A stretch of DNA of 64,000 nucleotides from Escherichia phage vB_EcoS_I14: the sequence record PP892525.1. One strand, 5' to 3'. Position numbers and translations under genes: made by a program. Every line of letters begins with the position of its first letter. Positions within the stretch are counted from its first letter, which is position 1. The notes beneath the pieces were generated by a model. It was not told where the DNA came from. It saw nothing but the letters and a program-made list of their open reading frames with translations, and ran no database searches. This document shows positions 38,025 to 64,000 of this stretch, in pieces.

Positions 38025-38087
38025 AGTTATCTAATTTGGAAACATATTTAAAAGTGTTTAAACTAATATTTGAATACTTTTAAATAT

Positions 38088-38175: not shown

Positions 38176-38192
38176 AATTAAAGGTAAAGGAT

Positions 38193-38684
38193 ATGTATAT
38201 TGATAGGATAATTCAAGAAGCTGCAAATAGGGGTATTATACAGTTAGGTTCACCCGCTGATATAAACAAAGATCTAATATTAGAGAGCCTCACATTTGGT
38301 ACAGCTAACTTTGGTCGCGATAGTAATCGTCGGTATAGTTTGAAGTTATCTGCTCTATCTTTTATCAAGTATAACAAAAGTATTGGAGAAAAATCCAGCT
38401 GTGGTTTTATTTATGCAATAACTAACCCAGCTTGGGATAACTATGTAAAAATTGGTATGTCTTCTGATCCTAAAACAAGATTAGGAAATTACCAGACTTA
38501 CTCTCCTTTACGTGATTATAAGTTAATACATTGGTCATTTTGGTTTAATGCTAGAGAAGCTGAGAAAATGCTTCATAATAGCTTTCCCGAACGGCTTAAT
38601 GAATGGGTAGTATTAGATAGAAGTGTAGATGAAATACTTTCTGAGTTTAATAATCTATCCAATAAACAATTTAAGTCCTGTTAG
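38193..38684 (+). CDS. GIY-YIG motif protein (homing-endonuclease-like)
   Basis: CGFIYAITNPAWDNYVKIGMSS...R...Y matches the GIY-(10)-YIG pattern, unusually in the C-terminal half. Confidence 0.5.
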   Translation: MYIDRIIQEAANRGIIQLGSPADINKDLILESLTFGTANFGRDSNRRYSLKLSALSFIKYNKSIGEKSSCGFIYAITNPAWDNYVKIGMSSDPKTRLGNYQTYSPLRDYKLIHWSFWFNAREAEKMLHNSFPERLNEWVVLDRSVDEILSEFNNLSNKQFKSC

Positions 38685-38751
38685 ACAAACTGGTAAAGTC
38701 ACTACCCTTTCAAGGTAGGGTTTGTGGGTTCGATCCCCGCACAGGACGCCA
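38675..38751 (+). tRNA. tRNA-Glu (anticodon TTC)
   Basis: perfect acceptor GTCCTGT/ACAGGAC, anticodon stem CTACC/GGTAG with loop CTTTCAA, T loop TTCGATC, CCA. Confidence 0.85.
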
Positions 38752-38759
38752 ATTTCTGC

Positions 38760-38836
38760 ATTCCTAGAGTGTTACTGGACAGCATGTCGGTCTCCAAAAC
38801 CGTACGGTCTAGGTTCGAGTCCTAGTAGGTTTGCCA
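38760..38836 (+). tRNA. possible tRNA-Trp (anticodon CCA) with a mismatched acceptor stem
   Basis: anticodon loop CTCCAAA, T arm CTAGG-TTCGAGT-CCTAG, CCA; acceptor has two U-U oppositions. Confidence 0.45.
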
Positions 38837-38842
38837 AAATTT

Positions 38843-38917
38843 GCACCTTTAGCTGAGATGGATTAGCGCTTGCCTGAAGAGCTTGAGAGGTTCGTTCGAT
38901 ACGAACAGGGTGCACCA
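38843..38917 (+). tRNA. probable tRNA-Phe (anticodon GAA)
   Basis: acceptor GCACCTT/AGGGTGC, anticodon loop CTGAAGA, T arm GTTCG-TTCGATA-CGAAC, CCA; two mismatches in anticodon stem. Confidence 0.55.
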
Positions 38918-38919
38918 AA

Positions 38920-39207
38920 TTGAAGGAGCTGCTGATGCATCCTGAAAACTTCTTTATTTACTGCGCTGATAAGTCGCTAAAACGTAGAATTAACAAAGTC
39001 TATCATTATCGTGCTAGTCAACAGCCTTATGTATATGCTTTTGACGGTGATCACATTCCACTAGAACAATTATCTTGTGATTACATGATATTGAAGAACT
39101 TTGACGAGACGAAGATCTCAAGCGTTCACAATCGACAGAATCCATTAACGTGGAAATATAAGAAGAAAAAGAAAGGAATCAAATTCTTAAAAAATGTAGT
39201 TGCTTAG
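38920..39207 (+). CDS. hypothetical protein (95 aa)
   Basis: ORF. Confidence 0.45.
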   Translation: MKELLMHPENFFIYCADKSLKRRINKVYHYRASQQPYVYAFDGDHIPLEQLSCDYMILKNFDETKISSVHNRQNPLTWKYKKKKKGIKFLKNVVA

Positions 39208-39228
39208 TTTCCAAAAGTTCTGTATAAT
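39200..39228 (+). promoter_or_regulatory. T5-type promoter: -35 TTGCTT, -10 TATAAT
   Basis: 17 bp spacer. Confidence 0.65.
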
Positions 39229-39239
39229 AATTACATAAA

Positions 39240-39482
39240 TTGAACTGGAGAAGCAACATGACAGAACAAGAATTGAATGAACGTAAGCTGGTAATGCTTC
39301 GCTTACTAAATATTTTCTCTGGTATGGACGGTGGAATTGACTTTGTTCATCTACGTTCTTTCGTAGAAGAAGCCGAAGGCGAATCTATCACTAAAATCCT
39401 TAAACACATGGGATTACTTTTAGATGCTGCTAATGTGGCTACTGAATATAAACTAGAAGATCTACCGGAGCGTGTTAAATGA
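39240..39482 (+). CDS. hypothetical protein (80 aa)
   Basis: RBS GGAG. Confidence 0.5.
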   Translation: MNWRSNMTEQELNERKLVMLRLLNIFSGMDGGIDFVHLRSFVEEAEGESITKILKHMGLLLDAANVATEYKLEDLPERVK

Positions 39483-39670
39483 AACGATTAGTTAGATTTA
39501 AGTGTTGTGGTTCTGAACATATTTTCACACATCTTCGTGAATTTAAAATGTGTGATTGTGGTAAATCAGGCTATGACTCAGGAGATGGGTTCTACGCCCG
39601 TACTCTAGGGAACTTCAATGATCTAGAATTTGAAGATCTCGAAAAGCAAGATAAATCGACCGTTGGCTGA
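39479..39670 (+). CDS. hypothetical zinc-ribbon-like protein (63 aa)
   Basis: Cys pairs CCGSEH...CDCGKSG. Confidence 0.45.
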   Translation: MKRLVRFKCCGSEHIFTHLREFKMCDCGKSGYDSGDGFYARTLGNFNDLEFEDLEKQDKSTVG

Positions 39671-39732
39671 ATGGCTTAGGCGAAGGATTGCAAATCCTTT
39701 TTATGTGAGTTCAAATCTCATGCGGTCGTCCA
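39657..39732 (+). tRNA. tRNA-Cys (anticodon GCA)
   Basis: acceptor CGACCGT/GCGGTCG, anticodon stem AAGGA/TCCTT with loop TTGCAAA, T loop TTCAAAT, CCA. Confidence 0.8.
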
Positions 39733-39739
39733 AATTTTA

Positions 39740-39822
39740 GGGTCGTTAGCCAAGCGGTTTGGCGGCGGATTGTTAATCCGTGTCGAAAGACAACGTAGGT
39801 TCGAATCCTACACGGCCCGCCA
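39740..39822 (+). tRNA. tRNA with anticodon GTT on a long-variable-arm (type II) scaffold
   Basis: acceptor GGGTCGT/ACGGCCC, anticodon stem GCGGA/TCCGT with loop TTGTTAA, 13 nt variable arm GTCGAAAGACAAC, T arm GTAGG-TTCGAAT-CCTAC, CCA. Confidence 0.6.
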
Positions 39823-39924
39823 AATTCTGTGTAGAGTTAAGTAAACCGGTAGCCAACCAGCTATCATTGCTGACATCGAATTCAGCCACAGATACCATTT
39901 TCATTAATAACTGAGGAAACAAGC

Positions 39925-40110
39925 ATGTCCAAGAATGTAATTGCACAGTTAGAAGTTCATCGTGATAACACAGCTAATAACATTAAGTGCCGACAAAAAG
40001 ATATTGAAGCTCGAAAGGCTGATCTTTTAATGAGTATTCGAGAGCTTAATGTACGAAAAGAGTTTCTTAAAGAACTTAATGCAGCTATTGAAAAACTCAA
40101 AGCTGAGTAA
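39925..40110 (+). CDS. hypothetical protein (61 aa)
   Basis: RBS GAGGAAA. Confidence 0.45.
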   Translation: MSKNVIAQLEVHRDNTANNIKCRQKDIEARKADLLMSIRELNVRKEFLKELNAAIEKLKAE

Positions 40111-40119
40111 ATGAATTAT

Positions 40120-40196
40120 GCGACCGGGGCTGGCTTGGTAATGGTACTCCCCTGTCACGGGAGGGAATGTGGGTTCAAATCCCATCGGTCGCGCCA
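40120..40196 (+). tRNA. tRNA-Asp (anticodon GTC)
   Basis: perfect acceptor GCGACCG/CGGTCGC, anticodon stem CTCCC/GGGAG with loop CTGTCAC, T loop TTCAAAT, CCA. Confidence 0.85.
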
Positions 40197-40222
40197 AACT
40201 AAACTAGCACGAGAAATATGAT

Positions 40223-40570
40223 ATGGTTAATGCTAAAGAAGAATTGTTACTTGCCCTAAAGAATACTAATTCTGAAGTTAAGTGTATTAAGATAGAATTC
40301 GGTTATTATGGGGACAAAGAAGTTTGGGTATTACCCATAGGTTATACAGAAAAAGATATTGAAGATTTTCTAAATAATCTAGACTTTAAATATGATTCTG
40401 GTTTCGGTGGACAATTGCTTTATGGTAACGTATGGTTTACTGATGGAACTTGGTTAGAACGTGGTGAATACGACGGTTCTGAATGGTGGGAATATAAGGC
40501 TACACCAGCAATCCCAGAAGAATGCCGAACAATTAATGGTGAAGTAGATCGTACTTTACTATTAAATTAA
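40223..40570 (+). CDS. hypothetical protein (115 aa)
   Basis: ORF. Confidence 0.5.
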   Translation: MVNAKEELLLALKNTNSEVKCIKIEFGYYGDKEVWVLPIGYTEKDIEDFLNNLDFKYDSGFGGQLLYGNVWFTDGTWLERGEYDGSEWWEYKATPAIPEECRTINGEVDRTLLLN

Positions 40571-40692
40571 CAAAATTTCAGTGCAGAACACGGAGCTAGC
40601 AATTCGGAAGTGCTGACTCATGATAAGCTGCCTATGTACTTGCGAAGCGGTCGTGTCCAAGACTCGGACTCTTGCACTGAAAACAATCAAAC

Positions 40693-40813
40693 ATTCTAGC
40701 GTGGTTGATGGGGAAACCAGCTTGGCTAGGGCAGAAGCTCGTTCGATTCGAGTGAAAGAATGGTTCTCGTAAGTCCGCACAAGTGATAGCAGGTTCGAGT
40801 CCTGTCTAGAATG
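40693..40813 (+). ncRNA. candidate tRNA-like RNA of about 121 nt with an enlarged central region
   Basis: 7 bp acceptor-like helix ATTCTAG/CTAGAAT, D-arm-like TGGTT...AACCA, canonical T arm GCAGG-TTCGAGT-CCTGT, but about 68 nt where an anticodon arm should be. Confidence 0.35.
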
Positions 40814-40962
40814 ACACTATAAAGTTTACTTATTATGTAGGTTCCGATAGATCGGCGGGTCTATTCTGGCATTTAAGAGAAGTCTCGCAAACTTTTTTGT
40901 CAGCCGTGGGGTTGGTAGCCTCCAGGTGGCCTACACAATAAGTAAATTTATTAAAAATTCAT

Positions 40963-40991
40963 TTGCTATTCTGCTTTATTATCTGTATAAT
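40963..40991 (+). promoter_or_regulatory. T5-type promoter: -35 TTGCTA, -10 TATAAT
   Basis: 17 bp spacer. Confidence 0.7.
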
Positions 40992-41023
40992 ATATTTTAT
41001 AAAGTGAAGAGAAGGAAAGCAAA

Positions 41024-41182
41024 ATGAAACACAAGATAGCTCAAGTCTTTATGGCATTATGGTGTATGCCAATAGCTATAACAGCATTTAATCTAGATAC
41101 TTTTACTATAGAAGAAAAATATATCGGATTAGTTAGCGGCTTTAGTATGCTGGGCTTATCTTTGCTGTGGTTAAAGAAATAA
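41024..41182 (+). CDS. hypothetical small membrane protein (52 aa), below the ORF-track cutoff
   Basis: ATG at 41024 after RBS AAGGAAAG; hydrophobic. Confidence 0.4.
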   Translation: MKHKIAQVFMALWCMPIAITAFNLDTFTIEEKYIGLVSGFSMLGLSLLWLKK

Positions 41183-41186
41183 TATT

Positions 41187-41264
41187 CTCCGTGTAGCTCA
41201 GTTTGGCCAGAGCGTTTCGTCTGGAGCGATAGGGTCGGGGGTTCAAATCCTCCCACGGAGACCA
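41187..41264 (+). tRNA. possible tRNA-Pro (anticodon TGG), atypical anticodon loop
   Basis: acceptor CTCCGTG/CACGGAG, D stem GCTC/GAGC, loop TCTGGAG with C at position 33, T arm GGGGG-TTCAAAT-CCTCC, CCA. Confidence 0.5.
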
Positions 41265-41270
41265 AATAAT

Positions 41271-41348
41271 TGCGGGTTAGATCTCTGGTAGAGATCGCTA
41301 GTCTCATAAGCTAGAAAGAGGTAGGTTCGATTCCTGCACCCGCTTCCA
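41271..41348 (+). tRNA. tRNA with anticodon CAT (Met, fMet or Ile-lysidine)
   Basis: anticodon stem CTAGT/GCTAG with loop CTCATAA, D stem GATC/GATC, T loop TTCGATT, CCA; position 1-72 mispaired. Confidence 0.65.
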
Positions 41349-41368
41349 TTTTAATAGAGGATTTCGAA

Positions 41369-41536
41369 ATGAAAGTATTTCGATTAGTAGTAAGTGACAA
41401 ACGCTTAGGTAAGAATACATCAAAATCCTTACTTGCTCATTATGGTAGAAATTGGGATGAAGTAATGGCAGAGTTTAGTACTAATCACCCTTACTTGAAA
41501 GTTCACTCTATTAAAGAAGTATACAATGGTTACTAA
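41369..41536 (+). CDS. hypothetical small protein (55 aa), below the ORF-track cutoff
   Basis: ATG at 41369; ends 2 nt before tRNA-Lys. Confidence 0.4.
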   Translation: MKVFRLVVSDKRLGKNTSKSLLAHYGRNWDEVMAEFSTNHPYLKVHSIKEVYNGY

Positions 41537-41537
41537 T

Positions 41538-41616
41538 AGATCGCTAGCTCAATAGGTTTAGTAGCATCCGACTTTTAATCGGAAGGTTCTGGGTTCGAGT
41601 CCCAGGCGATCTACCA
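41538..41616 (+). tRNA. tRNA-Lys (anticodon TTT)
   Basis: perfect acceptor AGATCGC/GCGATCT, anticodon stem TCCGA/TCGGA with loop CTTTTAA, T arm CTGGG-TTCGAGT-CCCAG, CCA. Confidence 0.85.
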
Positions 41617-41620
41617 AATT

Positions 41621-41694
41621 GCTCGGTTAGTTTAATGGGAGAACCCCGTCTTTACACGGCGGTTGCGATAGTTCGATTCTATCACCGAGTACCA
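41621..41694 (+). tRNA. tRNA-Val (anticodon TAC)
   Basis: acceptor GCTCGGT/ACCGAGT, anticodon loop TTTACAC, T arm GATAG-TTCGATT-CTATC, CCA. Confidence 0.8.
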
Positions 41695-41713
41695 ATTAAC
41701 TCAAAATAAGGAA

Positions 41714-42073
41714 TTGCAAATGCAATTATCAAGCAAGGTTCAAGGCTATTTCGGTCATGTAACAATGGAGTTCGCTATCTCTAAAGGTTGGGACTTCGAA
41801 CAAGATTTAGCTGAGTTCTACAAAGATATTGATCTGAACGTACCATATATGGGACTTTCTACTGGTCAGGAGATCACAGAAGCCGATGTATTCAAGGCAA
41901 GTCAAGGTGAGGTAACACCTAGTTTTGCCGAGTTCTGGTTAGGCATTACGTTAAAAGAAGATGCACCAGATAGTGGTGTACTAATGTCTAGTTTGCACTC
42001 TGGAAGTTCCGATTACCTTTTCATTAGCGATGTTAAGGAAATACAAGAAGTCTGCAAAAATGTACTTGCTTGA
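41714..42073 (+). CDS. hypothetical protein (119 aa)
   Basis: RBS AAGGAA; 3' end overlaps next promoter. Confidence 0.5.
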   Translation: MQMQLSSKVQGYFGHVTMEFAISKGWDFEQDLAEFYKDIDLNVPYMGLSTGQEITEADVFKASQGEVTPSFAEFWLGITLKEDAPDSGVLMSSLHSGSSDYLFISDVKEIQEVCKNVLA

Positions 42074-42094
42074 TGCTTAATTTCTTGTTATAAT
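42066..42094 (+). promoter_or_regulatory. T5-type promoter: -35 TTGCTT, -10 TATAAT, driving a non-coding transcript
   Basis: 17 bp spacer; no ORF follows, only a structured region and then tRNA-Ala. Confidence 0.65.
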
Positions 42095-42120
42095 ATTTAT
42101 ATAAATTGATGAGGATTTCT

Positions 42121-42310
42121 CCTCATCATAGTTCACTAAGGTATTAGCTCGACCTAGGACTGGCTGCCAAAAAGCACGATCCCTACGATTCGGGAGAAGT
42201 TCTAGATTAGTCCACTAGATTCAGCGGCAACTGAATAGTGTATTGGGTTTGCGAGATGACGCGGTTCCTTCCGCTCGAAGCGAAGGTGCTGTAGTTACGC
42301 CGAGCTAATA
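42121..42310 (+). ncRNA. candidate structured small RNA of about 190 nt
   Basis: terminal clamp ATTAGCTCG (42143-42151) pairing with CGAGCTAAT (42301-42309); internal hairpins GCGGTTCCTTCCGC and CTTCGC/GCGAAG; no ORF. Confidence 0.4.
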
Positions 42311-42332
42311 GCCTTAGTAAACTAAAGAATTT

Positions 42333-42406
42333 GGGGATATAGTTTAATGGTAGAACATCTGCTTTGCACGCAGAAGACGAGGGTTCAACTCCCTCTTTCT
42401 CCACCA
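42333..42406 (+). tRNA. tRNA-Ala (anticodon TGC)
   Basis: anticodon stem TCTGC/GCAGA with loop TTTGCAC, T arm GAGGG-TTCAACT-CCCTC, CCA; one U-U in acceptor. Confidence 0.7.
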
Positions 42407-42412
42407 AAATTC

Positions 42413-42497
42413 GGGGCTATGCTGGAACTGGTAGACAATACGGCCTTAGATTCCGTAGCTTAAATGCGTGGGAGTTCGAGTCTCCCTAGCCCCACCA
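42413..42497 (+). tRNA. tRNA-Leu (anticodon TAG), long variable arm
   Basis: perfect acceptor GGGGCTA/TAGCCCC, anticodon loop CTTAGAT, T arm GGGAG-TTCGAGT-CTCCC, CCA. Confidence 0.75.
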
Positions 42498-42513
42498 ACT
42501 TATAGGGTAATGT

Positions 42514-43098
42514 ATGCAGTTTGTACCAATAAAAGATGCACCAGGGTATTTAGTAAATGAAACAGGGGATGTGTTATCTACATTTACTAATAAAATTTTA
42601 TCAAGATATATAGTTGATGGATACCCTGCTGTAAAATTACAGATAAATGGTAAGCAAACTTCGGTACTTATACACCGAATTATTTCTCATGTATTTGGGG
42701 ACTTATATAATCTATTTGACCCTGAATTAGAAGTAGATCACAAGGATAGAGATAGGCTGAATCTATCTAAAGATAATCTTCAAGTTTTATCAAAAATAGA
42801 ACATCAGAAGAAAACTAATAAAGATAATGGATGGTCTGATAGTAGAGTACCTTGCCCCTTATGTGGAAATCTAATGCTTCAGAGATCAGTAACATGTACA
42901 AATTGTAAGCCAAAACCTACAGGAAAGTTAATAAAACCAGAGTTGTCCTTAGAAGACATAACTGAAAAGGTTTTATTAATGGGGTGGGTTAAGGCAGCTA
43001 AAGATCTAGAAGTATCAGAGTCCACTTTACGTAGACGATATACTAAACTAACCGGATTAAGCCCAAAAGTATTAACAGAACAACGGAAAAGCAAATAG
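42514..43098 (+). CDS. HNH homing endonuclease-like protein
   Basis: HNH motif in VDHKDRDRLNLSKDNLQVLSKIEHQ plus C-terminal Cys cluster; embedded in tRNA array. Confidence 0.7.
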   Translation: MQFVPIKDAPGYLVNETGDVLSTFTNKILSRYIVDGYPAVKLQINGKQTSVLIHRIISHVFGDLYNLFDPELEVDHKDRDRLNLSKDNLQVLSKIEHQKKTNKDNGWSDSRVPCPLCGNLMLQRSVTCTNCKPKPTGKLIKPELSLEDITEKVLLMGWVKAAKDLEVSESTLRRRYTKLTGLSPKVLTEQRKSK

Positions 43099-43178
43099 AC
43101 TGGTGACTAAACCCGATTGGAAATCGGTTGAGTGGTAGCAATACCGCCTTATGGGTTCAACTCCCATCTTTTCCGCCA
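43085..43178 (+). tRNA. tRNA-Ser (anticodon GGA), long variable arm
   Basis: perfect acceptor GGAAAAG/CTTTTCC, anticodon loop TTGGAAA, T arm ATGGG-TTCAACT-CCCAT, CCA. Confidence 0.8.
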
Positions 43179-43190
43179 AACAATTTATAT

Positions 43191-43285
43191 GGTAGGTCAA
43201 TCCAACGGCTGGCGCTGGACTCCGACTTGAAATCGGTTGATCGTAGTGATACGGTGTAAGGGTTCGATCCCCTTACCTACCTCCA
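43191..43285 (+). tRNA. tRNA-Ser (anticodon TGA), long variable arm
   Basis: perfect acceptor GGTAGGT/ACCTACC, anticodon loop CTTGAAA, T arm AAGGG-TTCGATC-CCCTT, CCA. Confidence 0.8.
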
Positions 43286-43651
43286 AATCTTGAAGTATGC
43301 CGGAATCGGTAGACGGGGCTGCCTAAAAGGTTTATAGGGAACATCCACTCCCTGCAACATACCTCATAAAGCGGCTGAGATAAATGGTCTATCTCGTGAA
43401 GGTTCAAGTCCTTCTGCTTCTTGATACATCTATGGCTCAAAGTGTAACGGTGCTATTTGATGCTCTTGGTAAGACTTCCCCGACATGCGTTCGGGAGTAA
43501 GCTGCTAAGGCTAGGGTAGAAGAGTTTCTGAGAGCCGCCACAATTGAAAATTCGTACTCGTCTTGAGCTGCGTGCAATAGGAGATAACTTGATTAGTATT
43601 CTAGAACATGCTAATTGAGGAAGGTTTCGCTAACCCTGCGAGTTTTCAATT

Positions 43652-43728
43652 GTGGCTATATCATAATTGGTTAATGATCCTGATTGTGAATCAGGCCTAT
43701 GTGGATTCGAATTCCACTAGCCACCCCA
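43652..43728 (+). tRNA. tRNA-His (anticodon GTG)
   Basis: perfect acceptor GTGGCTA/TAGCCAC, anticodon stem CCTGA/TCAGG with loop TTGTGAA, T arm GTGGA-TTCGAAT-TCCAC, CCA. Confidence 0.85.
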
Positions 43729-43752
43729 AATTAACTTAAATAGGAAATAAAT

Positions 43753-43947
43753 ATGGCTGATTTCTGCAAACAATGCTCCATTGATATGTGGGGCAGAGAT
43801 ACTGGTGATCTTTCTGGTTTGATTACAGAAGCTGAAGTTAAAGAAGGCTACGGTGCTGTTGTGGTTTGCGAAGGATGCGGAGTTATTCGAGTAGATCATG
43901 AAGGCAAACGTTTGGAAGAATCTGAGCCAACAACGATTTTTCCGTAG
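43753..43947 (+). CDS. hypothetical zinc-ribbon protein (64 aa)
   Basis: CKQC...CEGCG Cys pairs; RBS TAGGAAA. Confidence 0.5.
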   Translation: MADFCKQCSIDMWGRDTGDLSGLITEAEVKEGYGAVVVCEGCGVIRVDHEGKRLEESEPTTIFP

Positions 43948-43963
43948 AATAAGATGAAATTAT

Positions 43964-44039
43964 TGGGATGTAGATCAATTGGCAGATCGTCGGTTTCTGA
44001 CATCGAAGGTTCCACGTTCGATCCGTGGCATCCCAGCCA
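43964..44039 (+). tRNA. tRNA-Gln (anticodon CTG)
   Basis: perfect acceptor TGGGATG/CATCCCA (U1-A72), anticodon loop TTCTGAC, T arm CCACG-TTCGATC-CGTGG, CCA. Confidence 0.8.
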
Positions 44040-44045
44040 AACAAT

Positions 44046-44120
44046 TGGAAAGTAGTGTAATGGTTAGCACTGGAGATTTTGAATCTCTTAGTTAGGGTTC
44101 GAATCCCTACTTTCCTGCCA
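44046..44120 (+). tRNA. tRNA-Gln (anticodon TTG)
   Basis: anticodon stem GGAGA/TCTCT with loop TTTTGAA, T arm TAGGG-TTCGAAT-CCCTA, CCA; position 1-72 is U-U. Confidence 0.7.
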
Positions 44121-44126
44121 ATTTAC

Positions 44127-44201
44127 GCGTGATTAGTTCAGTGGCTAGAATAACTGGCTTCCAACCAGTAGACACGAGTTCGACTCTCGTATCCCGCACC
44201 A
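44127..44201 (+). tRNA. tRNA-Gly (anticodon TCC)
   Basis: anticodon stem ACTGG/CCAGT with loop CTTCCAA, T arm ACGAG-TTCGACT-CTCGT, CCA. Confidence 0.75.
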
Positions 44202-44218
44202 ATTTTTAAGGAAACGTT

Positions 44219-44440
44219 ATGCACGTTTTTGAATTTCGTAATAAAAGTACCGATAAACGAGTTATTGTTATTGGAGAAACATACCGAGCATACGAACAAA
44301 CTGACGGCTCTGTTATCTTGAATGACGAGAAAGGAGGTTTTAGCTTTTATCCCAAAGAAACTTACGAAGAATTTCGTACAAAGTTTCTTCTACCAGACTG
44401 GCTAGAAGTAGCGCAGCAACGAGAACCCGAAGATGGCTGA
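44219..44440 (+). CDS. hypothetical protein (73 aa)
   Basis: RBS AAGGAAA. Confidence 0.5.
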   Translation: MHVFEFRNKSTDKRVIVIGETYRAYEQTDGSVILNDEKGGFSFYPKETYEEFRTKFLLPDWLEVAQQREPEDG

Positions 44441-44597
44441 TAACCTAAAAGTCAAGATCGATAAACAAAAGAAACGTGTAGAAGTAGAGATTGGTGAAGA
44501 ACGTGTAGCCTTCACCTTTGAATTTCTACAACAAATGGCAATGACAGTTATGACTGATAAGTCTCCTGTTATTGAAAAAGAAATCCCGTTAAAATAA
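44433..44597 (+). CDS. hypothetical small protein (54 aa), below the ORF-track cutoff
   Basis: ATG at 44433 overlapping previous stop; stop codon sits inside palindrome ATCCCGTT-AAAA-TAACGGGAT. Confidence 0.4.
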   Translation: MADNLKVKIDKQKKRVEVEIGEERVAFTFEFLQQMAMTVMTDKSPVIEKEIPLK

Positions 44598-44605
44598 CGG
44601 GATCT

Positions 44606-44692
44606 GCTGGGTTGGCAGAATGGTTGAATGCACCTGATTTGTAATCAGGAGGAGTAATCCCGTTGCAGGTTCGAATCCTGTGCCCAGCACCA
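44606..44692 (+). tRNA. tRNA-Thr (anticodon TGT) with a 15 nt variable region
   Basis: acceptor GCTGGGT/GCCCAGC, anticodon stem CCTGA/TCAGG with loop TTTGTAA, T loop TTCGAAT, CCA; variable region AGGAG plus TAATCCCGTT. Confidence 0.6.
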
Positions 44693-44706
44693 ACTTAAGG
44701 ACTAGT

Positions 44707-44874
44707 ATGTTTAAACTGTTAGTAGTTATCTGGTATAGTCAATCAAATAGAGCGAATACCTCCCACGTTATAGACTTTAATACTAAAAATGAAGCTGAAA
44801 AAGCATACGCTAATTTAATAGAACGTAATAAAGAATCTCGTAGTATAGTTTATGAAGTGACTAAACTTTATTAA
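44707..44874 (+). CDS. hypothetical small protein (55 aa)
   Basis: ATG at 44707 after RBS AAGGA; the longer ORF-track start 44680 would overlap the tRNA. Confidence 0.4.
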   Translation: MFKLLVVIWYSQSNRANTSHVIDFNTKNEAEKAYANLIERNKESRSIVYEVTKLY

Positions 44875-44882
44875 AAATTCAT

Positions 44883-44911
44883 TTGCCTTCTCTCTTATTT
44901 CTTGTTATAAT
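44883..44911 (+). promoter_or_regulatory. T5-type promoter: -35 TTGCCT, -10 TATAAT
   Basis: 17 bp spacer. Confidence 0.65.
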
Positions 44912-44941
44912 ATTTATATAAATTAATGAGAGGGAAACCAA

Positions 44942-45235
44942 ATGAAACGTTATATTTCTGTTATGTTCCAAACTGGTGGTCAACGCTATACATATGAATT
45001 TCCATCTTCTTGGAAAATCAAAGAAGGTGATCAAGTAGTTGTACTAACACCTCGTGATGGGTACAAGGTAGTAACGGTTAAGCAAGTCTTCCCAAAAGAT
45101 TATACGCCATCTAAGTCTATTAATTATAAAATGATTCATGGTGTAGTTCGTCAAGTACCACGAGCGGAAGTCGAAATCAAAGTAGATAAAGATGGTAAAC
45201 TTAAATATACCTCTTGCTTAGAAGAGTTGCTATAA
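44942..45235 (+). CDS. hypothetical protein (97 aa)
   Basis: RBS GAGAGGGAAA. Confidence 0.5.
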   Translation: MKRYISVMFQTGGQRYTYEFPSSWKIKEGDQVVVLTPRDGYKVVTVKQVFPKDYTPSKSINYKMIHGVVRQVPRAEVEIKVDKDGKLKYTSCLEELL

Positions 45236-45441
45236 TGAGGATTACTTTTACAGAAAAGATCATGAGTAATGGTGTTATGATCATTACTGCATGGGATGGT
45301 AATCAGTGGTGTAGTGTCTCAGGTATTAAGCCTGAAGAACAAACACTAGATAATATCTCAAAGATTAAGCGAAGAATGACAGAACGTGCACGACTTCCAG
45401 GTGCACCTAGAAATGGCAAACGTTCTGCTGCAAAATGTTAA
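45235..45441 (+). CDS. hypothetical protein (68 aa)
   Basis: ATG at 45235 overlapping previous stop. Confidence 0.45.
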   Translation: MRITFTEKIMSNGVMIITAWDGNQWCSVSGIKPEEQTLDNISKIKRRMTERARLPGAPRNGKRSAAKC

Positions 45442-45442
45442 T

Positions 45443-45519
45443 GCTTCGGTAGCTTAGCGATCTAAAGCACTCGGCTGATAACCGAGAGATCGGGGGTTTA
45501 AATCCCTCCCGGAGTACCA
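45443..45519 (+). tRNA. tRNA-Ile (anticodon GAT), non-canonical T loop
   Basis: anticodon stem CTCGG/CCGAG with loop CTGATAA, D stem GCTT/AAGC, T arm GGGGG-TTTAAAT-CCCTC, CCA. Confidence 0.75.
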
Positions 45520-45615
45520 AATTTAGGAATTAAGACTATGCGTCCAGGAAAGTTTAAAAAAGCTAATTGGTCTAAAGAGTATAAAGAATACTTACTTAGT
45601 CTAGTAAAACATAAT

Positions 45616-45691
45616 AGTTAGTTGGCAGAGTGGTTATGCACCTCCTTCATACGGAGCGACTACAGTGGTTCAAATCCACTACTAACTACCA
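45616..45691 (+). tRNA. tRNA with anticodon CAT (Met, fMet or Ile-lysidine)
   Basis: perfect acceptor AGTTAGT/ACTAACT, anticodon loop TTCATAC, T arm AGTGG-TTCAAAT-CCACT, CCA. Confidence 0.7.
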
Positions 45692-60132: not shown

Positions 60133-60169
60133 TAGAGGCCAGGACTTAATTGTTCTGGCCTTTTGTGTT
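60133..60169 (+). terminator. rho-independent terminator
   Basis: stem GGCCAG/CTGGCC followed by TTTTGTGTTT. Confidence 0.65.
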
Positions 60170-60382: not shown

Positions 60383-60829
60383 ATGCGTGATAAAATAAAT
60401 GAATTATTAATCGAGGAAGCGAACAACTTCCCAATAAATAGGTTTACCAAATCAGATGGGTCTATTAATAGAACTAAGATTAAGCAGCTACATCCCGACT
60501 TTCAACAGGAAGCGCTAAACCTTATCTTTATCAAGAAAGCTGTTGCAGTTCATGGAGCTTTCTTTGGATATGAACGTGTAAATTATAAAACAATGCAACA
60601 GCAAGTCGAGATCTATTGTCCAGATCATGATGGTTATTACTGGCAAACTGCTAGATCTCATTTAGAAGGGCATGGTTGTAGACTGTGTGCACACAAGGTT
60701 GTGCAGCGTGTCACGGATTATGGAACTTATACCGTACCAGCATGTTATCATAAATTTGTAGTTGACGATAATCATATAGTTTGGTATAATAAGTTTTCAA
60801 AGTTAAGAATGGAGATAAATAGTGAGTAG
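60383..60829 (+). CDS. hypothetical Cys/His-rich protein (148 aa)
   Basis: CPDHDGYYW...HLEGHGCRLCAH cluster. Confidence 0.5.
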   Translation: MRDKINELLIEEANNFPINRFTKSDGSINRTKIKQLHPDFQQEALNLIFIKKAVAVHGAFFGYERVNYKTMQQQVEIYCPDHDGYYWQTARSHLEGHGCRLCAHKVVQRVTDYGTYTVPACYHKFVVDDNHIVWYNKFSKLRMEINSE

Positions 60830-61333: not shown

Positions 61334-61518
61334 TGGAAACTCTTTTTCTTTTAATGCTCGTAGGTTCTCTGTTACTAATACTAGCACTTCTACTAATCTG
61401 CAACATTCTTAATAATAAGAATTTAGAGTTAAAGTGTGAGAACCAAATCCTTAATCGTGAACTTAAACAATATAACCTAGCAGCCCATAAACTGTTAGAC
61501 AAACTGGAGAATAAATAA
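61333..61518 (+). CDS. hypothetical membrane protein (61 aa)
   Basis: N-terminal TM helix. Confidence 0.45.
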   Translation: METLFLLMLVGSLLLILALLLICNILNNKNLELKCENQILNRELKQYNLAAHKLLDKLENK

Positions 61519-62138
61519 TGACATTTAATGCACAACAACCTATTCAAGTAGTACCAGACCATGAACTGAATACGTGGGATTATAGCTTTAAAGATTTAAC
61601 TGCTACTGTACAATTCAAATCTATGAAGCTAACATTTGCACACAATGACCTTAGAGCATGTAAAGATCTTGAGGGTAAGCTCGAAGATGCTCGTAAGATT
61701 TTTGGTAAGGCTCGCATCCCAGCTGATAATCTAATTAACGCATTAATCGATGCATGGTATAAACTTGTGAAGACTGAGGTAAATCGGCCCAGTACTCCAG
61801 TGACTATTAGAGATCCGTGGCAGTTAGGGACAATCTCAATGCTGAATAACTCCGATAAAAGATTAATGTCGGATATGCACAATGTTCCTTGTGGGGGTGT
61901 GGGAAGTAGTACGCAGTCATATAAGTTAGGAGAAGATTACGGCCCTTCTGTACAGTTGAAACATACTCAAGAAGCTTTTGAATCTGATATGCGAAGCGTA
62001 GCACCTGCGGATGCTGGAGTTTCTAGGAGTTCTGTTTGTACTATTCATTTTAATAATCCTAGTAAACATGGAAGCTTAGAAGATGCTATTATGGGGGCGC
62101 TGGGAGCCTCTATTAATGAAGATAAAAGAGGTAATTAA
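61518..62138 (+). CDS. hypothetical protein (206 aa)
   Basis: ORF. Confidence 0.5.
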   Translation: MTFNAQQPIQVVPDHELNTWDYSFKDLTATVQFKSMKLTFAHNDLRACKDLEGKLEDARKIFGKARIPADNLINALIDAWYKLVKTEVNRPSTPVTIRDPWQLGTISMLNNSDKRLMSDMHNVPCGGVGSSTQSYKLGEDYGPSVQLKHTQEAFESDMRSVAPADAGVSRSSVCTIHFNNPSKHGSLEDAIMGALGASINEDKRGN

Positions 62139-62626
62139 TGAAAGAAGCACTTAAGTTTGCTAATATACTATTTGAACCGACGGAGGACTCGTCGGTTTAC
62201 TTTCTACAAATAACTGATGGTGCAAATGTACGACGTTATCTAACTGTATTAACTTTTGAAGCTATTACGCTTATTGAAGCTATTAGAAAAGTCTCTTATG
62301 ACTCAGAAGATGTCCAAACTATTGGATTCCTGAATTTCTTGAAGGAACAGAAATGTGCAGTGATTCCTATGAAAGAACATATTCCTGTTGATAGTACGGG
62401 AATACTAGAGTCTTTCCCACTTACTAAATATACTCAATTACATTTGAAAGAGTATACTATATGTCTGGGAGAGGAAGAGTTTGAGGTTCCTAATCCTAGA
62501 GTCTTATTTGACCTAATAAAGAGAACAGCCAAAAATAAATCTGATGCAAAAGATATTATTAATGGTATCTTGAAACGTGAAAGAAGATTAGCAGCAACAG
62601 CTAGTGGACAGGCGGATGATATATGA
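62138..62626 (+). CDS. hypothetical protein (162 aa)
   Basis: ORF. Confidence 0.5.
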   Translation: MKEALKFANILFEPTEDSSVYFLQITDGANVRRYLTVLTFEAITLIEAIRKVSYDSEDVQTIGFLNFLKEQKCAVIPMKEHIPVDSTGILESFPLTKYTQLHLKEYTICLGEEEFEVPNPRVLFDLIKRTAKNKSDAKDIINGILKRERRLAATASGQADDI

Positions 62627-63348
62627 GTATTAAAAAGAATTTAGCAGAGATTATTAAATTAGCTAGAGCTTGTAATGGAAAATGTGTTTCTCAGCTTAAT
62701 GAACTAGAGGCACATGCAGTAGCATTTTGTGCAGAGTTTTATCCTGCATATATTAATGCTAGTGGACAACCTAAGTATAATAAAAATGCGGAAGAAGTTA
62801 CTTTAGCTCCTTCATATATTAGCTTGCGTCGCCTAATCCAAACTGTTGATCCTACTATTAAAGGATTTTCAGCAGACTCATTCCACGTCTTTGCAGATAA
62901 AGAACTCCCACATTTTAAAGAAGGAAATGCAAAGTCATGTCTAGAATGTTATCCAAATATTCTGATGATTCCTCAAAAGCAATGTAAATACGATCATCTC
63001 CCTAGACTTACAAAGAAAGTAGAACCACCTTATTCTTCTCTATCTGAGTTAAAGCTAGGAATTGTATCTACACTTGCGCAGGTTCATCTAAGTATAGTTG
63101 ACGAATCAACAACATCTAACCCTATTCTAGATGCTGCTCACTTTGAAATTTTACGTGATCCTGAACAAGCTAGAAAAGTTGCAAAGTCTGTTAAGTTTGA
63201 TATATCAACAATTCTTGACACTAAACAAGAAACTAGACCTAGAGGAAGTGTAGATTATTCTGCGCTAAATTCCGAGTCATCTTACTTAGCAACATTCCTT
63301 TTCATGGCATCGAAGGGAATCATACTCAAAGTCAATCACGATATATAA
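62623..63348 (+). CDS. hypothetical protein (241 aa)
   Basis: ORF. Confidence 0.5.
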   Translation: MSIKKNLAEIIKLARACNGKCVSQLNELEAHAVAFCAEFYPAYINASGQPKYNKNAEEVTLAPSYISLRRLIQTVDPTIKGFSADSFHVFADKELPHFKEGNAKSCLECYPNILMIPQKQCKYDHLPRLTKKVEPPYSSLSELKLGIVSTLAQVHLSIVDESTTSNPILDAAHFEILRDPEQARKVAKSVKFDISTILDTKQETRPRGSVDYSALNSESSYLATFLFMASKGIILKVNHDI

Positions 63349-63365
63349 ACGTTAACGAAAAATTC

Positions 63366-63394
63366 TTGACATTATTTGAGCTGTATGTTATAAT
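63366..63394 (+). promoter_or_regulatory. consensus sigma70 promoter: -35 TTGACA, -10 TATAAT, reading into the repeat region
   Basis: TTGACA 63366-63371, 17 bp spacer, TATAAT 63389-63394; no ORF follows. Confidence 0.65.
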
Positions 63395-63687
63395 AATCTC
63401 ATAGATTAAAAACATCAACTTGTTTTTACCTCTAGGCCGTAGATTTACATCATTCCTCGTAGGAAAACACTTGATGACGGTTCTGGTACAGGTTCTCGTC
63501 AATTGTTCTTCCACACCGAGACTTAGGAGGATGTATCAAATCGCACGCGCCTAGAGGGGCTAACTCTCATGAAATGGGGGTATATTTACTTTTAAATAAC
63601 TAAAAATATTTAAAGGCAATATCTGTGTTCAAGATGATACACCTGTTGCCGCTCATCTGCTAGGATGGTACAACACTTTCTTCTAGA

Positions 63688-63935
63688 CTCCTAAGTTTCT
63701 AGGAATACTCACCCTTTCTAGGGCGGTTCTCCTAAGTTTCTAGGAACATATACTAGGCGGTTTAATACAGGGCGGTTTAATACAGGGCGGTTTAATACAG
63801 GGCGGTTATTGGGAGGGCGGTTATTTCTAGAAGACATTTTTCTAAAACACATTTCCAGAAATTACTGTCGGATTTGCACACTGACATAAGTTTAAAAACT
63901 GGTCGGATTTGCACAATCGCCTAAGTTTTTAGGAA
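63688..63935. repeat. three copies of an 18 bp repeat (C-T/G-CCTAAGTTT-C/T-TAGGAA, centred on a short palindrome) and two copies of GTCGGATTTGCACA
   Basis: copies at 63688, 63729 and 63918; GTCGGATTTGCACA at 63867 and 63902. Confidence 0.7.
63721..63825. repeat. iteron-like direct repeat array (GGCGGTTTAATACAG x3 plus degenerate GGGCGGTT units)
   Basis: tandem 15 bp units from 63757 to 63800 with flanking GGGCGGTTCT, GGCGGTTATT and GGGCGGTTAT. Confidence 0.75.
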
Positions 63936-64000
63936 CATATAATCTCCTGAAAATGGCAGCATTATTTCGGGCCGAAGGCCCATGATTGCCTGAGTTTTTA

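What the first reader, a model, noticed from the sequence alone, without database searches (positions are those of the whole stretch)
63350..64000. Repeat-rich non-coding terminus with a consensus promoter and iteron-like array
After the last ORF (63348) a perfect TTGACA-17-TATAAT promoter points into 600 bp without ORFs. The region holds three tandem copies of GGCGGTTTAATACAG plus degenerate GGGCGGTT units (63721-63825), three copies of an 18 bp repeat centred on a short palindrome (C-T/G-CCTAAGTTT-C/T-TAGGAA at 63688, 63729, 63918) and two copies of GTCGGATTTGCACA (63867, 63902). Iterons next to an AT-rich promoter are typical of replication origins or protein-binding control regions; in T5-like genomes this could lie near the terminal-repeat boundary.
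Basis: seen in the sequence. Interest (0 to 1): 0.55.

Follow-up and report, generated by a model that had tools for sequence, protein, structure and literature searches.

The report
T5 terminal-repeat edge: repeats plus RNA
This is the non-coding DNA just outside the left terminal repeat of a T5-like phage: the repeats belong to an already described, conserved repeat tract of unknown function, while the strong promoter drives a conserved folded RNA of about 190 bases that is neither annotated in any record I examined nor present in Rfam.

Summary

The window comes from a T5-like phage, read in reverse relative to the T5 map. Base 64000 is the last unique base before the left terminal repeat, as shown independently in T5, Spc35 and BF23.

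Positions 63628-64000 are the unique-side arm of T5's published "Repeat Region 3" (the injection-stop region). The GTCGGATTTGCACA pair is T5 direct repeat D, copies 8 and 7. The block occurs in 442 phage records. Its core motifs (TCGGATWTGCAC and paired GGGCGGTT) also survive in the distant phage My1. The three-copy 15-mer is a local expansion by slippage.

The promoter has a product. It starts a non-coding RNA of about 190 nt (about 63401-63590) made of a 5' hairpin, a long imperfect rod and a terminator hairpin. At least 12 unrelated sequence versions keep this shape (z -2.8 to -6.4). The RNA has no Rfam match and is not annotated in T5 or BF23 records.

The replication-origin reading has no positive support. 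I favour protein-binding arrays that mark the fixed site where concatemers are cut at the repeat edge. A role in the injection pause is the main rival. Both mechanisms are inferred.

The parts
62623..63348 (+). Last early ORF (241 aa), in the position of T5.018. It is context rather than part of the element. It has no Pfam domain and is replaced by unrelated genes in T5 and other relatives.
63366..63394 (+). Consensus sigma-70 promoter with an extended -10: TTGACA, 17 nt, TG-n-TATAAT. The predicted transcription start is near 63401.
   Evidence: A promoter scoring at least 11/12 with TG is present at the same relative place in 17 of 21 sequences (the window plus 20 relatives). The other four have TTGCAT, 18 nt, TGTTATAAT. 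The same holds in My1, L161 and L165.
63401..63595 (+). Predicted non-coding RNA of about 190 nt. It has a 5' hairpin (63407-63428), a long imperfect rod (63429-63557), and a terminator-like hairpin (63563-63581) that ends in GGGGG and is followed by a U-rich tail.
   Evidence: Fold of 63401-63600: -63.7 kcal/mol, z = -5.3. Nine unrelated sequence versions keep the same shape with z from -3.5 to -6.4, and three more give z of -5.6, -5.0 and -2.8. The + strand folds better than the - strand in 32 of 32 sequences. Compensatory pair changes are seen. Frameshifting indels rule out coding. No Rfam family matches.
63582..63627 (.). AT-rich spacer (about 20% G+C) between the RNA 3' end and the conserved block. 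It exists in two alternative versions among relatives.
63628..64000 (.). Conserved non-coding block. It is the unique-side arm of T5 'Repeat Region 3' and aligns to T5 10608-10220 at 81% identity.
   Evidence: It is present in 442 phage records, 420 of them at 80% coverage or more. Literature.
63690..63705 (.). Palindrome-centred repeat CCTAAGTTTCTAGGAA, copy 1. This position is shared with T5.
63731..63746 (.). Palindrome-centred repeat, copy 2. It lies in an alternative segment that replaces the DRD copy 9 segment found in T5 and Spc35.
63721..63824 (+). GGCGGTT array of six units on a 15-bp period. The last two units (GGGCGGTTAT-N5-GGGCGGTTATTTCTAG, 63800-63830) are invariant in all relatives. 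The extra TTTAATACAG units are a lineage-specific expansion.
   Evidence: Paired GGGCGGTT also occurs in My1 (16-bp spacing) and in L161/L165 (29-bp spacing).
63867..63880 (+). GTCGGATTTGCACA, corresponding to T5 direct repeat D (DRD) copy 8.
63902..63915 (+). GTCGGATTTGCACA, corresponding to T5 direct repeat D (DRD) copy 7.
63920..63935 (.). Palindrome-centred repeat CCTAAGTTTTTAGGAA, copy 3. It sits at a fixed distance (-49) from the GC hairpin in most relatives.
63969..63981 (.). GC hairpin GGGCC-GAA-GGCCC, 19 nt before the repeat edge. In the L161/L165 lineage a different hairpin (CACGGTG-TGT-CACCGTG) occupies the same place.
63995..64000 (.). TTTTTA, the last unique bases. The inner edge of the left terminal repeat follows immediately (TTTTTA|GAGCC in T5, Spc35, TUMS_E3 and L161/L165). 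In BF23 the edge is set by coordinates only.
   Evidence: BF23 repeat length of 9743 bp by PhageTerm: PMC10644984.
61868..61881 (+). Outlying DRD-like copy (GTCGGATATGCACA) inside the T5.019 homologue. T5 has a perfect copy at the matching place (12153).

Best explanation
[quoted passage not shown] Window base 64000 is the last unique base. The stretch holds two separate things.

(1) Positions 63366 to about 63595 are a self-contained small-RNA gene. A consensus extended -10 promoter drives a transcript of about 190 nt, made of a 5' hairpin, a rod of about 130 nt and a terminator hairpin ending in GGGGG plus a U-rich tail. All early genes next to it are transcribed towards the repeat. By inference, this is therefore the first complete transcription unit to enter the cell when second-step DNA transfer resumes.

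(2) Positions 63628-64000 are the unique-side arm of the conserved cis-acting repeat tract that T5 workers call Repeat Region 3, or the iss region. It holds palindromes, GGGCGGTT units, DRD copies 8 and 7, a GC hairpin, and then the repeat edge.

Inferred mechanism. DRD (TCGGATWTGCAC) and GGGCGGTT are arrays of binding sites for an unidentified phage or host protein. Together with the six DRD copies just inside the repeat, they flank the fixed position at which replicated concatemers are nicked or cut to form the genome's right end and to duplicate the repeat. T5 ejects its left end first, so by the rule that the last DNA packaged is the first ejected, the right end should be packaged first. 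This edge would then be the packaging-initiation site.

The tract is not an iteron-type origin.

How sure each step is: identity and location are shown (about 0.95). The RNA gene is strongly predicted but its expression is untested (about 0.75). The end-formation role is inference (about 0.35).
For: Location. The window's end coincides with the repeat edge in three independently annotated genomes (BF23 edge by PhageTerm).

Identity. The AY587007 record annotates DRD copies 7-9 on the unique side. T5 has six DRD copies inside the repeat and three outside, all in one orientation. Davison's preprint says Repeat Region 3 overruns the repeat by 270 bp and lies within a 1662-bp non-coding stretch.

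Constraint. Conservation runs without a break across the edge and is highest (about 0.9) from T5 10147 to 10407. DRD, paired GGGCGGTT, a hairpin near the edge and the edge sequence persist in My1 (a different subfamily) and in L161/L165, even though spacings change.

Specificity. The motifs are absent from the other repeat boundary, from the rest of the 64-kb window and from bacterial chromosomes.

End-formation model. Direct terminal repeats, with T5 named as an example, are described as arising from staggered nicks at fixed positions followed by 3' extension (PMC5557969).

RNA. In L161/L165 an intrinsic terminator closes the upstream operon just before the promoter, which shows the RNA is an independent unit there.
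Against: No experiment links any of these motifs to terminase, to nicking or to any protein.

The packaging direction is deduced from a general rule, not measured for T5.

The other repeat boundary, which must also be cut, carries none of the motifs.

The T5 literature attributes the tract to injection stop.

Expression of the RNA is not shown. Its terminator is weak in the T5-type version. The strand asymmetry is absent in My1 and L165, and the L165 fold is only modestly better than shuffles (z = -2.8).
Confidence: 0.55

Rival explanations
1. Injection-stop or restart apparatus. The block is the outer part of the iss. During the pause after first-step transfer, the DNA still inside the tail and portal includes this block. 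The repeats, alone or bound by a virion or host protein, would help hold the DNA until proteins A1 and A2 release it.
For: The block is continuous with, and conserved like, the tract assigned to iss. It flanks only the left repeat, which is the end that is ejected first. A geometric inference also fits. The estimated shear point is about 9618 in AY587007 coordinates. Adding 470-735 bp, the DNA length that fits a tail of 160-250 nm, gives about 10090-10350. That range spans the repeat edge (10139) and DRD copies 7 and 8 (10225-10274).
Against: [quoted passage not shown] The 7.9% estimate is imprecise. The tail-length argument is my own arithmetic, not a measurement. No binding protein is known.
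Confidence: 0.25
2. Replication origin. The promoter transcript would form an R-loop at the invariant GGGGG and AT-rich element and prime DNA synthesis. The GGGCGGTT and DRD arrays would be initiator or DnaA-like binding sites.
For: The layout resembles transcript-primed origins: a promoter, a G-run, then a stretch of about 45 bp at 20% G+C, then direct repeats. DRD contains ATTTGCACA, an 8/9 match to the DnaA box consensus TTWTNCACA. No T5 origin has been defined at sequence level.
Against: There is no perfect DnaA box, and 1-mismatch boxes are not clearly enriched (4.6 against 2.7 per kb). No adjacent initiator gene exists. The number and type of repeat units are unstable. Papers that cite the early electron-microscopy studies place the origins internally or near the centre. 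GC skew is uninformative here; its only sharp turn, near 22 kb, coincides with a point of divergent transcription.
Confidence: 0.12
3. The rod is only a 3' end structure. It would serve as an RNase-resistant cap and terminator for the early operon. The promoter would be incidental, or would serve to read into the repeat as antisense to pre-early genes 011-017.
For: In the window no terminator lies between the last ORF (end 63348) and the promoter, so operon transcripts should run into the rod and stop at 63563-63581.
Against: A near-consensus promoter is kept in every lineage examined. In L161/L165 the operon has its own terminator upstream of that promoter. I recall from the older T5 literature, without checking it here, that pre-early shut-off does not require second-step transfer.
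Confidence: 0.06
4. The repeats are neutral slippage products in dispensable spacer DNA.
For: The copy number and the unit type of the 15-mer vary between close relatives.
Against: The flanking units, the DRD copies, the palindrome at -49 and the hairpin are invariant or nearly so across 20 or more relatives, and the core motifs persist across subfamilies.
Confidence: 0.02

Closest known systems
Phage T5 'Repeat Region 3' / injection-stop (iss) region. Sources: the AY587007 annotation, and Davison 2020 bioRxiv 10.1101/866236, which cites the earlier descriptions.
   Same: Same map position, straddling the inner edge of the left terminal repeat. Same DRD sequence and orientation. Same order of elements. 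Non-coding and conserved among T5-like phages.
   Different: Only the unique-side arm lies in the window. This phage has six GGCGGTT units instead of 3-4, a second palindrome copy, and no DRD copy 9. The GGCGGTT units and the CCTAAGTTTYTAGGAA palindromes are not named in any T5 record I read. The function is unknown in T5 as well.
Phage T7 concatemer-junction region: promoters phiOR/phiOL, short-repeat arrays SRL/SRR beside the 160-bp terminal repeat, and an RNA polymerase pause site needed for processing. This is recalled from memory and was not checked here.
   Same: After the last gene, a promoter points at a direct terminal repeat across non-coding DNA that carries arrays of short repeats. 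The ends are made at fixed positions.
   Different: T7 uses its own RNA polymerase and has a repeat 60 times shorter. There is no sequence similarity. In T5-like phages a role for transcription in end formation is untested, and the transcript appears to terminate about 400 bp before the edge.
Terminase recognition sites with repeated boxes on both sides of the cut (SPP1 pacL/pacR around pacC; lambda cosB R sites). Established knowledge, recalled from memory.
   Same: Direct repeats of one motif lie on both sides of a fixed cleavage position: six DRD copies inside the repeat and two or three outside.
   Different: No evidence exists that T5 terminase binds DRD. The nearest copies lie 85 bp and about 260 bp from the edge. 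The second cut site, at the other repeat boundary, lacks the motifs.
Iteron-type replication origins (plasmids such as P1, F and pSC101; lambda ori)
   Same: Tandem direct repeats near an AT-rich stretch and a promoter.
   Different: No neighbouring initiator gene, no perfect DnaA box, a 15-bp unit with unstable copy number and type, and literature that places T5 origins elsewhere.
Rod-shaped or sequence-divergent structured RNAs: 6S RNA, and phi29 packaging RNA (encoded near a genome end, with a conserved shape and divergent sequence). Recalled from memory.
   Same: A size of about 170-200 nt, a largely double-stranded rod, and a shape that is conserved while the sequence is replaced. Like the phi29 pRNA gene, it lies beside a genome end.
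   Different: No Rfam match to 6S or to any other family. The 5' and 3' ends do not pair with each other as they do in 6S. T5 has a conventional terminase, so a pRNA-like role is not expected.

Membership tests
T5 Repeat Region 3 (unique-side arm of the iss-region repeat tract) | Lies immediately outside the inner edge of the left terminal repeat | tested here: met
   Window 64000 corresponds to T5 10220, Spc35 9574 and BF23 9744. The repeats end at 10219, 9573 and 9743.
T5 Repeat Region 3 (unique-side arm of the iss-region repeat tract) | Carries direct repeat D (TGTCGGATTTGCACA) copies in the same orientation as the copies inside the repeat | tested here: met
   Exact copies at 63867 and 63902, aligned with T5 DRD copies 8 and 7.
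T5 Repeat Region 3 (unique-side arm of the iss-region repeat tract) | Non-coding, with the same order of elements in other T5-like phages | tested here: met
   Alignment of 21 unique sequences (the window plus 20 relatives) and a conservation profile of 24. 442 phage records carry the block. Frameshifting indels occur in the ORFs over the RNA region.
T5 Repeat Region 3 (unique-side arm of the iss-region repeat tract) | Acts in cis to stop or restart DNA transfer | not testable with these tools
   This has not been shown experimentally even for T5.
Iteron-type replication origin | Array of directly repeated initiator-binding units with stable number and spacing | tested here: inconclusive
   The window has six GGCGGTT units on a 15-bp period. 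Relatives have 3-4, and the nearest relative has a different mix of unit types.
Iteron-type replication origin | Adjacent gene for the initiator protein | tested here: not met
   The three upstream ORFs have no Pfam domain, and the last one is replaced by unrelated genes in relatives.
Iteron-type replication origin | DnaA boxes and an AT-rich unwinding element | tested here: inconclusive
   No perfect TTWTNCACA is present, and the two DRD copies match 8/9. An AT-rich stretch at 20% G+C lies at 63582-63627.
Iteron-type replication origin | Replication initiates here | not testable with these tools
   Papers citing the early electron-microscopy work place T5 origins internally or near the centre. 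The primary paper, PMC515544, could not be retrieved.
Independently transcribed bacterial-type small RNA gene | Own promoter and own terminator | tested here: met
   A 12/12 extended -10 promoter and a terminator-like hairpin at 63563-63581. A promoter is kept in all lineages. The terminator is canonical in the L007 type and weak in the T5 type.
Independently transcribed bacterial-type small RNA gene | Secondary structure under selection | tested here: met
   Twelve sequence versions give z scores from -2.8 to -6.4. Three rod pairs in the T5 type and three of six 5'-hairpin pairs across types show double compensatory changes. Cross-type pair counts for the rod were not possible because MAFFT loses the structural register.
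Independently transcribed bacterial-type small RNA gene | Not protein-coding | tested here: met
   A 1-nt indel at the rod apex frameshifts both overlapping ORFs in near-identical relatives, and no ORF is shared between types.
Independently transcribed bacterial-type small RNA gene | The transcript is detected in infected cells | not testable with these tools
   No T5 transcriptome paper was found in the held library.
Any Rfam 15 family | Covariance-model match | tested here: not met
   The window region gave no match at E up to 1. The eight loci that carry the other RNA versions gave none within the RNA region; four unrelated sub-threshold hits lay elsewhere in those loci.
Terminase recognition / end-formation site | Located at the fixed cleavage position | tested here: met
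   The repeat edge follows base 64000, and the edge sequence TTTTTA|GAGCC is conserved.
Terminase recognition / end-formation site | Bound and cut by the phage terminase | not testable with these tools
   I found no T5 data on this. The general model for direct terminal repeats comes from PMC5557969.

The most novel reading that the evidence does not exclude
The rod RNA of about 190 nt is a previously undescribed RNA found across the T5-like phages examined. It is made from the first promoter to enter the cell at second-step transfer. Its wholesale sequence replacement with preserved shape (at least 12 versions, and four unrelated apices on one conserved basal stem) would reflect a specificity or arms-race function. 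Examples would be a decoy against a host defence or nuclease, or a cis-acting partner of the neighbouring boundary repeats in end processing or priming.
Probability: 0.25. Interest if true: 0.75.

Novelty: new member of a known kind. Interest (0 to 1): 0.5.

Why it matters
How T5 stops and restarts DNA injection, and how its 10-kb terminal repeats are cut and duplicated, have been open questions for decades. The non-coding tract at the repeat edge is the main cis-acting candidate, yet it has resisted genetics.

The comparison made here narrows that tract to a short list of elements that survive across subfamilies: TCGGATWTGCAC, paired GGGCGGTT, a hairpin about 20 nt from the edge, and the edge sequence itself. 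It also shows which parts are free to vary. That makes targeted mutagenesis and protein-binding tests practical.

The comparison also reveals a strongly promoted structured RNA in this tract that is not annotated in any record I examined.

For genome annotation, the result gives a simple way to place the terminal-repeat edge in the hundreds of T5-like assemblies that were opened at arbitrary points.

Tried and rejected
Rfam scans of the window region and of eight loci carrying other RNA versions found nothing for the RNA.

The classical T5 promoter PN25, using the sequence as I recall it, is not at this locus or in any held locus, so the check is uninformative.

Antisense-target search. [quoted passage not shown] The window RNA's best matches (12 nt) do not exceed shuffled controls. 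For the T5 RNA the best hits were 13-17 nt, and no shuffle control was run for it.

Host mimicry. The RNA region has no similarity to 5,426 E. coli genomes.

Host-chromosome DRD arrays. A scan of one genome per bacterial species gave one T5-like contig binned into a MAG and six unrelated tandem repeats.

A scan for GGGCGGTT-N7-GGGCGGTT in viral contigs returned mostly chance hits in GC-rich contigs, and it missed My1, whose spacing is N8.

The other repeat boundary of T5 (late genes | right repeat) has none of the motifs, so there is no symmetric signal.

GC skew as an origin indicator. The only sharp turn, near 22 kb, coincides with a divergent-transcription point between nrdD-like and phoH-like genes, so it is uninformative.

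Cross-type covariation on a MAFFT alignment of basal RNA segments. Only the 5' hairpin stays in register, and the rod base does not.

Small ORFs. ORFs 63420-63554 (+) and 63332-63514 (-) are rejected by frameshifts in relatives. ORF 63718-63852 (-) lies over the copy-number-variable array. ORF 63792-63914 (-) was not tested.

The 11/12 complementarity between RNA positions 63518-63529 and the palindrome repeats has no visible counterpart in the T5-type RNA, so I treat it as chance.

Literature. The 1976 origin-mapping paper, PMC515544, could not be retrieved. The 2026 T5 deletion study removed genes up to 017 but not the non-coding tract, so it says nothing about whether the tract is essential.

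The window's own genome is not in the phage collection; the best records are 94-95% identical.
Full report
**1. The observation**

- The promoter is TTGACA (63366), 17 nt, TATAAT (to 63394), preceded by TG. It is the only 12/12 match in the last 18 kb of the window.
- Tandem Repeats Finder reports 3.5 perfect copies of GGCGGTTTAATACAG at 63756-63807, score 104.
- With the degenerate units there are six GGCGGTT units between 63721 and 63824. They account for six of the eleven near-matches to GGGCGGTTWW in the whole 64 kb.
- The palindrome-centred repeat CCTAAGTTT(C/T)TAGGAA occurs at 63690, 63731 and 63920.
- GTCGGATTTGCACA occurs exactly at 63867 and 63902. The window holds four matches at up to 2 mismatches against 0.29 expected, and no shuffle reaches four.

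The stretch is not literally free of ORFs, since four of 40-60 aa exist. The two that overlap the RNA region are frameshifted in near-identical relatives.

**2. Where the window sits**

The window carries 24 tRNA genes. Its last kilobase matches several hundred Salmonella and Escherichia T5-like phages.

It runs in reverse relative to the standard T5 map. Positions 63628-64000 align to T5 10608-10220 at 81% identity.

In T5 (NC_005859) the left terminal repeat is annotated 1-10219. In Spc35 it is 1-9573, and the window's match ends at 9574. In BF23 the match starts at 9744, and the published repeat length, determined from read starts with PhageTerm, is 9743 bp (PMC10644984).

Window base 64000 is therefore the last unique base. 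The repeat would begin with GAGCC, as it does in T5, Spc35 and the nearest relative TUMS_E3.

**3. The repeats are known in T5**

Davison's preprint (10.1101/866236) describes three untranslated repeat regions in the T5 repeat. [quoted passage not shown] It lies within a 1662-bp non-coding stretch, and it contains nine copies of direct repeat D (DRD).

The AY587007 record annotates DRD copies 7, 8 and 9 at 10225-10238, 10260-10274 and 10397-10409, on the unique side. In the T5 sequence I count six copies of GTCGGATT(T/C)GCACA inside the repeat and three outside, all in one orientation. A tenth copy lies inside gene T5.019.

The GGCGGTT units and the palindromes are not named in any of the three T5 records or in BF23. 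The function of the tract is stated to be unknown.

**4. Conservation**

I fetched relatives through conserved DNA words. I aligned 21 unique sequences, the window plus 20 relatives.

From 63628 to the edge the order of elements is the same in all of them. The following are invariant or nearly so:
- ACAGGGCGGTTAT-N5-GGGCGGTTATTTCTAG
- AAAACACATTT
- both DRD copies, at fixed offsets
- GCCTAAGTTTT
- the last 50 bases, including the hairpin GGGCC-GAA-GGCCC

A profile over 24 sequences shows conservation running without a break across the repeat edge into the iss region. It is highest from T5 10147 to 10407. The block is present in 442 phage records, 420 of them at 80% coverage or more.

Some parts vary:
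- The segment that carries DRD copy 9 in T5 and Spc35 is replaced in the window by one with a second palindrome.
- The window has 30 extra bases of the 15-mer.
- The nearest relative, TUMS_E3, also has six GGCGGTT units but a different mix of unit types.

The three-copy tandem is therefore a recent slippage product built on an invariant core.

**5. Deep conservation**

Pectobacterium phage My1 belongs to another subfamily, and its repeat ends at 12854. The same layout holds there:
- a TTGACA-17-TAAAAT promoter with TG after the last early gene
- a short structured RNA
- four TCGGATTTGCAC-type copies outside the repeat and six inside
- GGGCGGTT-N8-GGGCGGTTAT about 150 bp from the edge
- a homologous sequence just inside the edge

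A third lineage (L161 and L165) keeps the DRD copies, a GGGCGGTT pair 29 bp apart, and the same edge sequence TTTTTA|GAGCC. At the place of GGGCC-GAA-GGCCC it has a different hairpin.

Motifs that survive this divergence while their spacing changes are most simply explained as protein-binding sites.

They are absent from the other repeat boundary of T5 and from the rest of the window. Bacterial chromosomes do not carry them as arrays either.

**6. The promoter has a product**

The 200 nt after the promoter fold at -63.7 kcal/mol against -41.3 for shuffles, z = -5.3. The fold is a 5' hairpin (63407-63428), a long imperfect rod (63429-63557) and a hairpin (63563-63581) ending in GGGGG before a U-rich tail. 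The terminator scan picks up that last hairpin independently.

*Promoter.* In the first set of 21 unique sequences, a promoter scoring at least 11/12 with TG sits 250-270 nt upstream of the conserved block in 17. The other four have TTGCAT-18-TGTTATAAT.

*Sequence versions.* The 32 unique promoter-to-block modules, from 39 loci, fall into five unrelated sequence clusters. One cluster has a conserved basal stem carrying four unrelated apical versions.

*Shape.* All nine distinct versions fold into the same shape, with z from -3.5 to -6.4. My1, L161 and L165 add three more, at -5.6, -5.0 and -2.8.

*Strand.* The + strand folds about 10 kcal/mol better than its complement in 32 of 32 sequences. 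That is expected for an RNA with G-U pairs and not for a DNA palindrome. My1 and L165 do not show this asymmetry.

*Compensatory changes.* Within the T5 type, three rod pairs show double compensatory changes and one pair is broken. Across types, three of the six 5'-hairpin pairs do the same.

*Coding.* A 1-nt indel at the rod apex frameshifts both overlapping ORFs in near-identical relatives.

*Independence.* In L161 and L165 a strong terminator closes the upstream operon just before the promoter, so there the RNA is its own transcription unit.

*Prior knowledge.* No Rfam family matches any version. None of the T5 or BF23 records annotates a promoter, terminator or RNA here. I found no paper describing it in the held library. 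Older subscription literature could not be searched.

**7. What the RNA does**

This is unknown. I found no antisense target in the phage DNA examined, no resemblance to E. coli DNA, and no second copy of its promoter-proximal sequence in the window.

One contextual inference stands. The neighbouring early genes are all transcribed towards the repeat, so their promoters enter the cell after them. This promoter lies only about 0.6 kb beyond the repeat edge. The RNA should therefore be the first complete early transcription unit available when second-step transfer resumes.

**8. What the DNA repeats do**

All three readings below are inferences.

*(a) End formation, which I favour.* Direct terminal repeats, with T5 named as an example, are described as arising from staggered nicks at fixed positions followed by 3' extension (PMC5557969). 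The repeat edge at 64000 is one of those two positions. It lies in the most conserved part of the tract and is flanked on both sides by copies of one motif in one orientation.

T5 ejects its left end first. By the general rule that the last DNA packaged is the first ejected, packaging should begin at the right end. In a concatemer that right end is this same edge.

The nearest analogues, recalled from memory, are the repeated boxes around the SPP1 pac cut and the lambda cosB sites. Another is the T7 concatemer junction, where a promoter after the last gene points at the terminal repeat across short-repeat arrays.

Against this reading, the other boundary has none of the motifs, and nothing has been tested experimentally.

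*(b) Injection pause.* The tract is continuous with the region assigned to iss. With tails of 160-250 nm, equivalent to about 470-735 bp of DNA, the DNA inside the tail and portal at the pause would span roughly AY587007 10090-10350. That range covers the edge and DRD copies 7 and 8. This is arithmetic on an imprecise 7.9% estimate, so it is only a lead.

*(c) Origin.* The layout of promoter, G-run, AT-rich stretch and direct repeats does resemble transcript-primed origins. DRD contains an 8/9 DnaA box.

However, there is no perfect DnaA box. There is no adjacent initiator gene. The array is unstable. Papers citing the early electron microscopy place the origins internally or near the centre. 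GC skew does not help.

**9. Verdict**

The finding is real, and its placement at the terminal-repeat boundary is correct. Its repeats are a new example of a described but unexplained T5 feature.

The origin interpretation is the least supported part. The promoter drives a conserved, non-coding, shape-conserved RNA that does not appear in Rfam or in any annotation I examined. That RNA, together with the short list of motifs that survive across subfamilies, is what deserves follow-up.

My confidence is about 0.95 for identity and location, about 0.75 that the RNA is real, and no more than about 0.35 for any single mechanism.

Noticed in passing
window 61868-61881 (inside ORF 61518-62138, the T5.019 homologue); T5 12153: A DRD-like copy (GTCGGATATGCACA; a perfect copy in T5) sits inside a coding gene about 2 kb from the main cluster, at the homologous place in both phages.
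   Followed up: partly
window 62623-63627 compared with T5 10609-11820 (L001): The last early gene and the RNA module are mosaic. T5.018 (294 aa) is replaced here by an unrelated 241-aa ORF with no Pfam domain. The same RNA type is found behind different last genes in L006 and L011.
   Followed up: partly
window 63350-64000: CTAG, usually rare in enterobacterial DNA, occurs 9 times here (13.8 per kb against 4.6 per kb in the window). Only 5 of 634 tiles of equal size reach that count. Most copies are in TTCTAG or CTAGG contexts that recur in relatives.
   Followed up: partly
window 22015-22357: The cumulative GC skew has its minimum at a 343-bp divergent intergenic region between an nrdD-like gene (- strand) and a phoH-like gene (+ strand). 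This is roughly the centre of the T5 map. The region contains promoter-like sites on both strands. It was not examined as an origin candidate.
   Followed up: partly
window 35053-45691: A cluster of 24 tRNA genes, all on the + strand, as is typical of T5-like phages.
   Followed up: no
window 60134-60163 and 60762-60790: A strong intrinsic terminator is followed by an 11/12 promoter with TG, inside the homologue of T5.023 where T5 annotates a promoter. Together they define the last early operon, which has no terminator of its own before the RNA promoter.
   Followed up: partly
L161 and L165 (reverse strand), between the GGGCGGTT pair and the DRD cluster: This lineage carries two further repeat families not seen in the window: CACGAAGTYCYCACA, and GCCTAAGTYYTAAGCGTCA, which is related to the palindrome repeat.
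   Followed up: no
T5 about 10197-10202 (L001), with the same place in Spc35, My1 and L161: A TTGACA hexamer is conserved 17-18 bp inside the repeat from its edge in T5, Spc35 and L161 (22 bp in My1). Its spacing to any -10-like sequence is too long for a standard promoter.
   Followed up: no
L168 (SABI01000336.1, Spirochaetia MAG): A 2.6-kb contig binned into a Spirochaetia metagenome-assembled genome is a fragment of a T5-like phage repeat-edge region. It is probably a binning contaminant.
   Followed up: no
L170 (CAZMBF010000179.1, 2273-bp contig of an alphaproteobacterial MAG): An unrelated array of about ten 22-bp units (TATAGTCGGATTTGCACCATTT-like, several degenerate) happens to share the DRD core 12-mer. 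It looks like an iteron array of some small replicon.
   Followed up: no
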